DNA from: Opitutales bacterium
GTDB taxonomy: Bacteria > Verrucomicrobiota > Verrucomicrobiia > Opitutales > UBA953
Reading direction: 5' to 3'
DNA: 64,000 nt
Assembly (NCBI GenBank): GCA_040398005.1
Contig: JBBAUX010000004.1
Span: forward strand, 66,926-130,925
Program-made: the position numbers
In this document: in pieces, positions 18,001 to 21,000 of the stretch
How positions within the stretch are numbered: the first letter of the stretch is position 1
Layout of the letters: the number at the start of each line of letters is the position of its first letter

Positions 18001-21000
18001 CATTGCTGCTAAATATTCTCGTCGGATGGATAAACTCGTCGGCGTTTTGGCAAAGCTCGGTTTCCAAGTGCGCAAACCTGGTGCCGGATTCTTCTTATAC
18101 ATGCCCGCTCCTAAGTCGGCGACCGGTCCATCGGGAACAGTTTTATTTGATTCTGGCGAAGCTTTTTCTCAGTGGATGATTTCCGAACATTTAATTTCCA
18201 CGGTGCCTTGGGATGATTGCGGATTCTTCGTTCGCTTCTCCGTCACATTCGTTTCGGAAAAAGGTGAAGCCGGTGAGGCCGAGGTGATTGCCGAGGTCGA
18301 ACGCCGTTTAACCCCCTGGAAATTCAATTTCTAAGAGATTTTCGCTAGTTTCTGTCGGATTGACAGGGGCGGGGTTAATTGGTCAGATTAACTTTCTAGT
18401 TTATGGCCTGATAGCTCAGTTGGTAGAGCAGGCGCCTGAAGAGCGCCGTGTCGTTGGTTCGATTCCGACTCAGGCCACCACTTTAAGAAACCCGTTTGAA
18501 ACCTCAGACGGGTTATCTTTTGAAGAGTAAACGGAGGAGGTGAAATCTTTCGCCGTGATCGAGCGGTGGCACAAAAGAATTATCCATGCCGTGGTTAATT
18601 AAAGTAATCCGTTTCGCTTCCTTGCTTACTTTGTCACCCTTGGTCGTTTCTTCTACCCATTCTGCCTTAACGATGCCGAAGGGGATCGATTCATTGCGCC
18701 AGACGGCTCCCTCGATTTTGATGACCTGTTTTTTGACGAAGGGTGGATCGACATTGGTAAGACAAATCATATGCAATTTTTTGCATTCATAAGTTTTATT
18801 TTGGAAATCTAAGCGTTCTGTTTTTTTATCATCCACTAGAGTGTTTTCCGTAGTGTAGCCTGCAGTGCTGGCGATAGATTTTACGTCTTCGGGCAGCATA
18901 TGCCATGAGCCAGTTTTAGGATTCGAAAATAGAATTTCGGCAGAGGACTCGAGTAACTTATTCGCGCCTTCACGATCTAGGTCCTTGGGTACTAAAAATC
19001 TTAAAGGGGCTTTTTCGCGTGACCCCAGCCAGGCCACGGGTTCGATGTTTAACCAAACGTAAGCTTTGCCATTTACTTCGCCGGCTGCCCAAACGGAAAG
19101 TTTTATTTCGGGTACTTTATCGGTCTTTGGAATATCAGTGCGGGCAATTTCGTAGGTTGCCCAGGAGCCTGCGGGTGGGAGATTTTCTGCAAAAATATTC
19201 CATTGGGCTTGGGCATGCGTGCAGAGTCCGAGGGCGAGCCAGAGCCACCATTTTTTCGCTAGTTTCACTTTTCGACCCTAAATTGCTCAATTTGCCCTGT
19301 CGAGTGCCTATCTTTTGCCTTTGTCTTTGACTCAATGTAAGGGCTTAATTTTAGTTAAATCTCTGCTATGGAATGCACGATACAGTCATCGACGAATCCG
19401 ACCTTGAGTGGTCGTGCCTTAATTCCTGCGATTATTATTATCGGGCGATAAGTCCGCGAACGGATCGCTTTAGCGAATTCCCGTTCCGCGACAAATCGGA
19501 GCGGCGGTCTATCTTTTAACTCCACCCAACATTTACAAACCAACATGGCTCGAAAAATCGAAATCTATGACACCACACTCCGCGACGGATCGCAGGGGCT
19601 GGGGATTCATTTCTCGGTCGCTGATAAATTGCGCGTGGCGCAGGAGCTGGAACGTTTTGGCGTAACTTACATCGAGGGCGGCTGGCCGGGTTCCAATCCC
19701 CGCGATATCGAATTTTTTGCGGAAGCCCGAAAATTAAAATTTAAGAAAGCGAAACTCGCGGCGTTTGGATCTACTCGCAAAAAAGGTGTCCGTGCTGCTG
19801 AGGATAGTCAGGTTAAAGGCTTACTCGAAGTGCATACGCCCGTTGTCACCATTTACGGTAAGACATCGGCCTTACACGTTCGTGAAGTTTTACGCTGCAC
19901 GCCCGAAGAAAATTTAGCGATGATTGCGGATACTATCGCTTATTTAAAGTCGCACGGACGTGAAGTTGTTTACGATTGTGAACACGCCATAGACGGATGG
20001 AAGGAAGATCCTCAATACGTACTGGCTTGCTTTAAGGCGGCGGCGGATGCGGGGGCTTCACGCATTGTTTTATGCGATACTAACGGTGGATCGTTGCCTG
20101 ATGAAGTCGCCGCCTGCACACGCGCGGCGATGTCTGCCGTCAAAGCTGCGATAGGCATACACACGCACGATGACTCCGGATTGGCTTTGGCGAACGCTTT
20201 AGCCTCACTCGACGCAGGTGCGATGCATGTGCAAGGCACGATGAATGGTATCGGGGAACGTACGGGTAATTGTGATTTAACTGCGGTGATACCCGTGGCT
20301 CAAATCAAGCGCGGTTGGAGTTGTGTTCCCGTGAGTTCACTCCGTCGCCTCACAGAACTTTCTCGTTTTATCGATGGTGTGACTAATCAAGCGCCTGATC
20401 CTCGTCGCCCCTGGGTGGGTGCCGCTGCGTTTGCGCATAAAGGTGGAACGCACGTGGACGCCGTCAGAAAATTTTCTGCGGCCTATGAACACGTTGATCC
20501 TGCTACCGTTGGCAATGCGCGCGATGTTTTAGTGAGCGATCAATCGGGTCGCAGTAATTTACTCATGAAGGCTGCCGAGTTAGGAATCGAATTAGATAAA
20601 GATGCACCCTCCACCAAAGCTGCTTTAGAAGAGTTGAAGAAACTCGAACACCAAGGTTGGAGTTTTGAAGATGCGGATGCATCACTAGTTTTATTGCTCC
20701 GCCGTCATTTAGGTAAGACTGCAGTGGTGCCCTTTGAGGTCGTGAATTATAATGTATCAATCCAAGGCGGCAGTAAGTCGGCCTCGTGCGAGGCGACCAT
20801 CCGCATGCGCGTTGATGGTAAAGAGTCTTTGACCGTCGCGGATGGAGAAGGTCCCGTGCACGCTTTAGATCAAGCGTTACGTAAGGCCTTAGTTAAAGCA
20901 TTTCCCAAACTTAAAAAAGTTCATCTCGCAGATTACAAAGTTCGCGTACTCGCGGGCCAAGATGGCACCTCGGCGAAGACTCGCGTAGTCGTGCGCTCGA

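What a model noticed while it worked through the whole genome (the two positions that open the first line are those of the whole stretch)
19368..19525. Ile-rich leader peptide attenuator upstream of citramalate synthase cimA
An uncalled 27-codon leader ORF (MECTIQSSTNPTLSGRALIPAIIIIGR, C4:86293-86376) ending in a run of Ile codons precedes cimA, followed by mutually exclusive antiterminator and terminator hairpins and a U-tract. It is a classical ribosome-stalling attenuator that ties the threonine-independent isoleucine route to Ile-tRNA supply.
Evidence so far: Leader peptide with 2-5 Ile among its last 9 codons (4-5 in 27) in 30 of 30 genus loci while the N-terminal part diverges; antiterminator pairing GCCCGC..AACGG/CCGTTCCGCGG in 30 of 30 and overlapping terminator in 28 of 30; folds -16.3 and -12.7 kcal/mol sharing the CCGTTCCG strand. 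A different Ile/Thr-rich leader precedes cimA in one of four other families.
(Added by a program. Inside this text positions count along the whole contig: contig position 66,926 is position 1 of the stretch shown here. "Call 12" and the like, gene names such as g00115 and contig names such as C1 are that model's own, and its searches are not shown. The text may have been shortened before it was handed on; [...] marks where a part breaks off. The agent that wrote the report below was given it as the finding of a first reader that could run no searches.)

Follow-up and report, generated by a model that had tools for sequence, protein, structure and literature searches.

The report
Isoleucine-sensing leader switch before cimA
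A tiny isoleucine-rich gene and competing RNA hairpins in front of an isoleucine-synthesis gene very likely let these freshwater bacteria turn that gene up when isoleucine runs short, but the 'off' hairpin lacks the usual transcription stop signal, so how it shuts the gene off is still open.

Summary
The leader is real. The 27-codon uORF (19368-19451; 5 Ile in its last 10 codons) precedes a TIGR00977 citramalate synthase in a freshwater Opitutales genus where ilvA was not found (0 of 53 genomes). It stands in all 29 genus loci with upstream DNA. Across 44 distinct leaders the frame and Ile cluster are kept. Three overlapping helices (protector, antiterminator, 'off' hairpin) are 94-98% paired, and modelled ribosome positions flip them in the right direction in 25-26 of 29 loci; the window's own copy is borderline. 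'Classical' fails at the output: 0 of 44 have a U-tract at the stem, the first UUU lies 9-10 nt away in 31 of 44 (pause-like spacing), and rho was not found in 17 genus genomes although 44 of 44 other genomes of the order match it. Ile sensing is about 90% likely; transcriptional output through an atypical pause/terminator about 60%. A second leader type ending CGA-ATT-NNN-stop precedes cimA in 26 of 135 loci from other families. Ten paper searches found no cimA attenuator. The scan noted this element before in another genome (e1-4006699), and Ile leaders before cimA in other phyla.

The parts
19327..19355 (+). Promoter-like box: TTGACT (19327-19332), 17 nt, TTTAGT (19350-19355); inferred start site near 19361-19363
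   Evidence: TTGACT lies 32-36 nt before the uORF start in 27 of 27 genus loci with that DNA (I anchored on this hexamer); T-N-N-A-(G/C)-T follows at 17 nt in 25 of 27. The sigma-70 consensus scan does not call it. Inferred.
19368..19451 (+). Leader uORF, 27 codons (Ile sensor)
   Evidence: 27 or 29 codons in 43 of 44 distinct leaders (1 cut); stop TAA 30, TGA 10, TAG 4; the two indels inside the ORF are 3 nt each.
19422..19442 (+). Regulatory Ile codons: Ile19 and Ile22-25 (ATT ATT ATT ATC at 19431-19442)
   Evidence: Last 10 codons of 44 leaders hold 217 Ile, 41 Leu, 19 Thr, 3 Val. ATT is 68 of 142 Ile codons in leaders against 59 of 555 in cimA of the same 27 loci.
19442..19456 (+). Protector hairpin 1:2 across the stop codon (CGGGC 19442-19446 with GUCCG 19452-19456)
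   Evidence: 98.2% of cells paired in 44 sequences; C-G to G-C change on both sides in 3 related rows. The Gly codon is the rare GGG in 27 of 27 loci against 101 of 1285 Gly codons in cimA.
19452..19492 (+). Antiterminator 2:3 (19452-19463 with 19481-19492), enclosing a small hairpin at 19465-19476
   Evidence: -18.0 kcal/mol; outer helix 96.9% paired, inner 86.4% paired with changes on both sides at 4 of 5 pairs.
19481..19504 (+). 'Off' hairpin 3:4 (CCGUUCCG 19481-19488 with CGGAGCGG 19497-19504)
   Evidence: -13.0 kcal/mol; 97.2% paired, no change on both sides, U-A/U-G exchange at one pair in 15 rows.
19505..19517 (+). 9-nt spacer and short U run (UUUU 19514-19517): pause-like, not terminator-like, geometry
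   Evidence: First UUU begins 9 nt (27 rows) or 10 nt (4 rows) after the core stem, none within 16 nt in 13 of 44; the spacer sequence varies.
19518..19544 (+). G-free C/A/U stretch before the cimA start codon (probably the ordinary initiation region)
   Evidence: Sequence. SD-like words stand before only 25 of 452 genes; pre-start regions of two relatives are also C-rich.
19545..21101 (+). cimA, citramalate synthase, 518 aa (regulated gene)
   Evidence: TIGR00977 equivalog 648.6 bits, cut-off 450. A separate LeuA is encoded elsewhere in the genome (TIGR00970 772.7 bits, cut-off 697.4).

Best explanation
A ribosome-read isoleucine attenuator with a non-standard off signal. RNA polymerase starts about 6 nt before the uORF. 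When Ile-tRNA is scarce, the ribosome stalls in the Ile run, covers segment 1 and leaves segment 2 free; 2:3 forms, 3:4 cannot, and cimA is transcribed. When Ile is plentiful, the ribosome reaches the stop codon and covers the first 6-9 nt of segment 2 (after release the 1:2 protector takes them); 3:4 forms and holds polymerase 10-12 nt downstream in the short U run, where the transcript is most likely released, probably inefficiently and with help from an elongation factor such as NusA. Shown by sequence comparison: translated frame, Ile specificity, three conserved overlapping helices, fixed hairpin-to-U distance. Inferred: start site, stalling, order of folding, pausing and release. Sensor alone about 0.9; sensor plus transcriptional output about 0.6.
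For: Frame, start and stop kept with three stop codons and 3-nt indels. 217 Ile against 3 Val in the last 10 codons of 44 leaders; only such uORF among 488. Downstream gene is CimA; no ilvA over the TIGR01124 cut-off in 0 of 53 genus genomes, nor over the TIGR01127 cut-off in the own genome, whose two weak hits are CysK and TrpB. Helices 94-98% paired against 16-54% when slid; 2:3 structure has 13 cells with changes on both sides, 0 of 500 shuffles as high. Segment 3 pairs upstream with the ribosome on the last Ile in 26 of 29 loci and downstream with it on the stop in 25 of 29 (27 of 29 with a 12-nt mask). The first UUU is 9-10 nt from the stem in 31 of 44; a duplex 11-12 nt upstream of the 3' end stabilises pauses, and NusA aids suboptimal terminators (PMC12288461, passages). 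The same sensor logic is shown by experiment for M. tuberculosis ilvB1 (PMC13236596, section 10).
Against: No canonical U-tract in 0 of 44; in most relatives the 8 nt after the stem are mainly C, which should not release a transcript. 13 of 44 have no UUU within 16 nt. Gene-end hairpins of this genome often have adjacent U runs (13 of 45 by the script's count, more where the U run was absorbed into the stem), as do 4 of 13 in two GC-richer relatives, so the off hairpin is not the genus's normal terminator. The window's own copy favours 3:4 even in the Ile-stall model at equilibrium (0.36 against 0.64), as do L002 and L022; it needs 2:3 to fold first. The outer helices are almost invariant, so covariation is thin (none on both sides in 3:4; the protector change is one clade). 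The whole 19400-19530 stretch folds no better than shuffles (z -0.81). Relatives are kin, not independent. No expression data under Ile limitation.
Confidence: 0.6

Rival explanations
1. Same Ile sensor, but the output is post-transcriptional: the 2:3/3:4 switch or the stalled ribosome itself changes cimA translation initiation or mRNA stability, not termination.
For: No U-tract, no rho found, little SD use so initiation may depend on upstream single-stranded RNA; the stem ends only 21-23 nt before the start codon in one clade.
Against: Neither fold covers the start region: median opening energy of -20..+13 is 4.3 kcal/mol in the 2:3 state and 3.7 in the 3:4 state; 2:3 is more open by over 1 kcal/mol in 4 of 44 and less open in 13 of 44, the wrong direction. 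No RNase J over the cut-off in 5 genomes searched. It does not explain the fixed 9-nt distance to the U run.
Confidence: 0.2
2. A plain classical attenuator: 3:4, extended by a bulge and two pairs to 19507, followed by UCUAUCUUUU, is a weak factor-independent intrinsic terminator.
For: In the window the stem can extend and the next 8 nt then hold 5 U (sequence); all other classical parts are present.
Against: By eye the extension is not available in most relatives, whose tails are C-rich with 0-3 U in 8, yet they keep the same helices; the consensus scan calls no terminator.
Confidence: 0.12
3. Rho-dependent attenuation (tnaC-like): the C-rich, G-poor tail is a rut site exposed or reached according to ribosome position.
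For: C-rich, nearly G-free tail; 44 of 44 other genomes of the order match rho, mostly twice.
Against: rho not found in the own genome (93.9% complete) or in 16 genus genomes of 94-99% completeness. The C-rich tail is partly a general feature of pre-start regions.
Confidence: 0.03
4. The uORF is a small hydrophobic peptide acting as a protein, or a remnant, and the hairpins have another role.
For: The C-terminal half is hydrophobic and a G-R-A motif before it is largely kept.
Against: Ile is not exchanged for Val or Leu (217 Ile, 3 Val; Leu mostly the last codon), the last residue varies among L, R, K, V, G, E while the protector pairing is mostly kept, and the gene behind it starts an Ile pathway.
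Confidence: 0.05

Closest known systems
Classical leader-peptide transcription attenuators of enterobacteria (ilvL, ivbL, thrL, leuL, trpL; established knowledge, recalled)
   Same: Short uORF with end-product codons near the stop; four-segment layout with 1:2 protector, 2:3 antiterminator and 3:4 hairpin; ribosome at the stop covers segment 2.
   Different: Senses Ile almost alone; regulates citramalate synthase; 3:4 has no adjacent U-tract; host lineage is Verrucomicrobiota, uses few SD sequences, and rho was not found in it.
Mycobacterium tuberculosis ilvB1NC uORF attenuator (PMC13236596, outline and section 10 part 1 read) and Corynebacterium ilvB uORF motif (PMC11109978, passages)
   Same: BCAA codons in a uORF; stalling favours an antiterminator; controls the first step of a BCAA route.
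   Different: Those end in a Rho-independent terminator with a U-tract (mapped 3' end in M. tuberculosis) and sense Leu, Val and Ile; target is acetolactate synthase.
Hairpin-stabilised polymerase pause (his-type; PMC12288461 and PMC5842316, passages)
   Same: Hairpin about 11-12 nt upstream of a possible pyrimidine 3' end.
   Different: Known pause hairpins delay but do not release; here the hairpin sits in the terminator's place and competes with an antiterminator. Pausing is not shown.
Leader peptides without terminators before cys operons of Actinobacteria (PMC1262725, passages) and tnaC
   Same: Amino-acid-rich leader with no standard terminator and a pyrimidine-rich downstream tract.
   Different: Those are proposed or shown to use Rho, which was not found in this genus; this leader has conserved competing hairpins, those cys leaders do not.
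T-box riboswitches before COG0119 (leuA/cimA-type) genes of Bacillota (PMC12452182, one table passage)
   Same: tRNA charging controls a gene of the same enzyme family.
   Different: No T-box here (Rfam); sensing is by a translating ribosome.

Membership tests
Classical leader-peptide transcription attenuator | Short translated uORF with conserved start, frame and stop | tested here: met
   29 of 29 genus loci; 27 or 29 codons, three stop codons in 44 leaders. Translation itself not measured.
Classical leader-peptide transcription attenuator | Regulatory codons match the end product of the downstream pathway | tested here: met
   3-6 Ile in the last 10 codons in 44 of 44 (L212, with 3, was dropped by my filter); CimA equivalog; ilvA not found in 53 genomes.
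Classical leader-peptide transcription attenuator | Mutually exclusive hairpins sharing one strand, plus 1:2 protector | tested here: met
   97.6% and 93.6% of cells paired; slid controls 16-54%.
Classical leader-peptide transcription attenuator | Ribosome position selects the fold in the right direction | tested here: inconclusive
   Met in silico in 26 of 29 (Ile stall) and 25 of 29 (stop); the window's own copy gives 0.36 upstream pairing in the stall model.
Classical leader-peptide transcription attenuator | Intrinsic terminator: GC-rich stem followed at once by a U-tract | tested here: not met
   0 of 44 with 5 or more U in the 8 nt after the core stem; no terminator called in the window.
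Classical leader-peptide transcription attenuator | Amino-acid-dependent premature termination in vivo or in vitro | not testable with these tools
   Only assembled RNA contigs were available.
Rho-dependent leader attenuator (tnaC type) | Rho encoded in the genome | tested here: not met
   Not found in G000 or 16 genus genomes; 44 of 44 others match.
Translational attenuator (ermC/cat type) | One fold hides the ribosome-binding site or start codon | tested here: not met
   Opening energies similar in both states, direction mostly wrong.
T-box or other Rfam riboswitch/leader family | Match to an Rfam model | tested here: not met
   19200-19700: one chance match at E 4.3; 14 related loci: only a tRNA.
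Hairpin-stabilised pause (his type) | Duplex ends 11-12 nt upstream of the paused 3' end | tested here: inconclusive
   U run starts 9-10 nt after the stem in 31 of 44, which would put a 3' end at +11/12 in it; the pause is not observed.

The most novel reading that the evidence does not exclude
A leader-peptide attenuator whose off state needs neither a U-tract terminator nor Rho: in a genus that has lost rho, a hairpin-stabilised pause (stem, fixed 9-nt spacer, 2-4 U) is turned into transcript release by NusA/NusG or an unknown factor. Alongside it, other Opitutales families carry a separate minimal Ile sensor in which one ATT codon, always after CGA and two codons before the stop, controls a hairpin that begins in the stop codon.
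Probability: 0.25. Interest if true: 0.8.

Novelty: new variant of a known kind. Interest (0 to 1): 0.55.

Why it matters
It gives the citramalate route a gene-level isoleucine control on top of the known feedback inhibition of the enzyme (PMC13381585, passages), in a phylum for which my ten searches found no such attenuator. It appears to be the only clear Ile leader of this 1.4-Mb genome. The sensor is textbook, but the output is not: a strongly conserved switch with no standard terminator in a genus where rho was not found makes a short, synthesizable template on which to ask whether a pause hairpin can end transcription, and what replaces Rho. The CGA-ATT leaders offer a natural test of how few codons an amino-acid sensor needs.

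Tried and rejected
RNA evidence: one run search gave three lake metatranscriptomes with 5% of the words each, kept as contigs. Laid at 85% likeness, contigs of a close relative cover 19375-19759, 19375-19775 and 19381-20202, nothing lies at 19239-19374, and the listed differences inside the leader are two loop positions (19469, 19471; 138 rows not shown). No DNA run was laid and contigs show neither ends nor single transcripts, so this is not used as support. Rfam: no family. Rho-dependent output: rejected for this genus. Start-site occlusion: no support. RNase J protection model: no match over the cut-off in 5 genomes. Comparison with other attenuators of the genome: none seen before ilvB, ilvD, leuC or leuA. 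Riboswitch platforms as a model for the tail: no cobalamin element in 5 genomes; TPP-like hits below the gathering score in 5 of 5, four of them folded, no standard terminator seen by eye, not decisive. A loose order-wide pattern for the CGA-ATT motif matched 170 of 201 genomes, mostly by chance, and could not show other targets. Hairpin tally after the CGA-ATT/ATT-ATT leaders (31 of 31) had no control and is not evidence. 'One ancestral leader rewired when rho was lost' was considered and left unproven: a quick tree puts this genus's CimA with Limisphaerales/Acidobacteria proteins, not with other Opitutales, so the two leader types may be independent. BLAST of the leader found 65 of 96 genus genomes but missed several that carry it, so it is a lower bound.

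Full report
Observation. The window holds the ORF MECTIQSSTNPTLSGRALIPAIIIIGR at 19368-19451, 93 nt before a 518-aa gene at 19545-21101. That gene scores 648.6 bits on the citramalate synthase equivalog TIGR00977 (cut-off 450); a separate LeuA lies on another contig. Named relatives at 87-99% protein identity are almost all freshwater Opitutales/Opitutae MAGs. No threonine dehydratase passed the cut-off in the own genome (the two weak hits are CysK and TrpB) or in 53 genus genomes, so CimA is the likely only entry to isoleucine; CimA and IlvA are listed as the two alternative first steps in PMC9026213 (passages).

The leader is not chance. Among 488 small uORFs upstream of 452 genes of this genome (crude ORF calls), it is the only one with 4 or more Ile in the last 10 codons. 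A search of 61 relatives returned 30 genus loci; 29 have upstream DNA and all 29 carry the leader. With one more handle locus and 29 named loci, 59 candidates gave 44 distinct stretches: 13 were dropped as identical (told by comparing outputs), L205 has no upstream DNA, and L212 (3 Ile in its last 10 codons) fell through my filter. In the 44, the ORF has 27 or 29 codons (1 cut), ends in TAA, TGA or TAG (30, 10, 4), and its last 10 codons hold 217 Ile, 41 Leu, 19 Thr and 3 Val. The two indels in the ORF are 3 nt. ATT makes 68 of 142 leader Ile codons against 59 of 555 in cimA. A TTGACT box lies 32-36 nt before the uORF start in 27 of 27 loci, with T-N-N-A-(G/C)-T 17 nt later in 25; I anchored on the hexamer and the consensus scan does not call it, so the promoter is inferred.

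RNA anatomy. A protector (19442-19446 with 19452-19456) spans the stop codon: 98.2% paired, with a C-G to G-C change on both sides in three related rows that also changes the last amino acid; it explains the rare GGG Gly codon in 27 of 27 loci (101 of 1285 in cimA). The antiterminator (19452-19492, -18.0 kcal/mol) is 93.6% paired with its inner hairpin, with 13 cells changed on both sides and 0 of 500 shuffles as high. The 3:4 hairpin (19481-19504, -13.0) is 97.2% paired with no two-sided change. Slid controls give 16-54%. On the first 27 sequences alone covariation was nearly nil, and kin are not independent, so the support is conservation of three compatible pairings more than covariation. 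Masking RNA as a ribosome would, segment 3 pairs upstream with the ribosome on the last Ile in 26 of 29 loci, and downstream with it on the stop in 25 of 29. The window's own copy is an exception at equilibrium (0.36 against 0.64), with L002 and L022; it would need 2:3 to fold first, as is expected during transcription (inference).

The output is the problem. None of 44 leaders has 5 or more U in the 8 nt after the core stem; the first UUU starts 9 nt (27) or 10 nt (4) after it, and 13 have none within 16 nt. The spacer sequence varies and is mostly C in GC-rich relatives, while its length is kept. In the window the stem can extend over a bulge to 19507, leaving UCUAUCUUUU, a marginal terminator at best. 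Gene-end hairpins in this genome often have adjacent U runs (13 of 45 counted, from 70 convergent ends, an undercount), as do 4 of 13 in 400 kb of two relatives (small sample). rho was not found in the own genome or in 16 genus genomes of 94-99% completeness, whereas 44 of 44 other genomes of the order, the sister genus included, match it (39 over the cut-off). Neither fold hides the cimA start region, SD-like words are rare (25 of 452), and no RNase J passed the cut-off in 5 genomes. [quoted passage not shown] A 9-nt spacer puts positions +11/+12 inside the U run. I therefore commit to transcription attenuation through a pause-like, probably factor-aided off signal (0.6), with a post-transcriptional output (0.2) and a plain weak terminator (0.12) as rivals. 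The sensor itself I put at about 0.9.

Beyond the genus. Of 201 genomes of the order, 137 have a close cimA; I fetched the upstream DNA of 136 loci, 135 of them outside the window's family. A short uORF ending CGA-ATT-(NNN)-stop stands before cimA in 26 and one ending ATT-ATT-(NNN)-stop in 5, in 11 of 25 families; controls gave 2 (reverse complement) and 0.75 (shuffles). The pattern was chosen after seeing the data. The codons are fixed: CGA ATT 26 times, a synonymous form once. Six of these leaders have a single Ile. A GC stem follows, by eye beginning at the last base of the stop in most (offset 2 in 18 of 31, uncontrolled), mostly without a U-tract; the 24 of these hosts searched match rho. 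L088 has a long Ile-rich leader with a standard terminator. Many other loci lie inside operons or seem to have a promoter right at the start codon (by eye). A quick tree (54 of 57 rows, SH-aLRT only, midpoint root, no one-clade test) joins this genus's CimA to Limisphaerales/Acidobacteria proteins (99) apart from 15 other Opitutales (100), and those neighbours show no Ile leader. The two leader types may thus have arisen separately.

What is known. Ten full-text searches listed no paper on a leader-peptide attenuator of cimA or in Verrucomicrobiota; the library lacks most subscription papers. Rfam has no matching family. Nearest described cases: M. tuberculosis ilvB1 (PMC13236596, outline and section 10 part 1), the Corynebacterium ilvB uORF (PMC11109978, passages, no mention of cimA or Verrucomicrobia in the main text), terminator-less cys leaders (PMC1262725, passages), T-boxes before COG0119 genes (PMC12452182, one passage), and allosteric Ile control of CimA (PMC13381585, passages). 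From memory, unseen: a 2010 survey by Lopatovskaya, Seliverstov and Lyubetsky predicted attenuators before 'leuA' genes in several phyla; some could be cimA. No supplements were read. The scan's own notes list 50 findings on cimA Ile leaders in other lineages (8 shown) and one on this element in another freshwater Opitutae genome that also doubts the terminator; these are unchecked notes, not support.

Verdict. A real, conserved Ile-sensing leader that works like a classical attenuator at the sensor and switch, but fails the terminator test and so is filed as a new variant. Interest 0.55; it would deserve about 0.8 if release without U-tract or Rho is shown.

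Noticed in passing
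L031-L033, L038, L040, L041, L048, L049, L052, L054, L058, L059, L062, L065, L068, L070, L074, L075, L077, L080, L099, L110-L112, L120, L144 (100-310 nt upstream of cimA): Short uORFs ending in the exact codons CGA-ATT, one more codon (none in L040) and a stop, followed at once by a GC stem; 26 of 135 loci outside the window's family, six with only one Ile. Five more loci end ATT-ATT. A candidate minimal Ile sensor.
   Followed up: partly
Genus g1 genomes (G000 and 16 others) against 44 other genomes of the order: rho was not found in the genus, while other Opitutales mostly carry two rho-like genes, one long and one of about 380-440 aa.
   Followed up: partly
window 19545-21101 and L230-L271: The genus's CimA is about 60% identical to Limisphaerales/subdivision 3 and some Acidobacteria proteins but about 50% to other Opitutales, and groups with the former in a quick tree: possible horizontal acquisition.
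   Followed up: partly
Sister genus g26 (G093, G116, G136 and five more): No cimA match at E 1e-110 in 8 of 8 genomes; how they make isoleucine was not checked.
   Followed up: no
L088 (G237), about 220-330 nt upstream of cimA: 37-codon Ile-rich leader followed by a standard terminator with seven U: a fully classical-looking cimA attenuator in another family.
   Followed up: no
L189-L193 (G000:C8:68835-68939 and relatives): TPP-riboswitch-like element just under the Rfam gathering score before a thiC-like gene (named by eye) in 5 of 5 genus genomes; no standard terminator or SD seen behind it.
   Followed up: partly
L043 and L145 (family f18), about 185 nt upstream of cimA: Short Ile-rich ORFs ending ...IISWI and ...IISLI, a possible third leader type.
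   Followed up: no
window 18513-19268, minus strand: Divergent 251-aa gene with no NCBIfam match and what looks like a signal peptide.
   Followed up: no
L005, L030, L212: In this clade the 3' arm of the off hairpin has moved behind an inserted small stem, yet the core pairing is kept and the modelled switch works in L005 and L030.
   Followed up: partly
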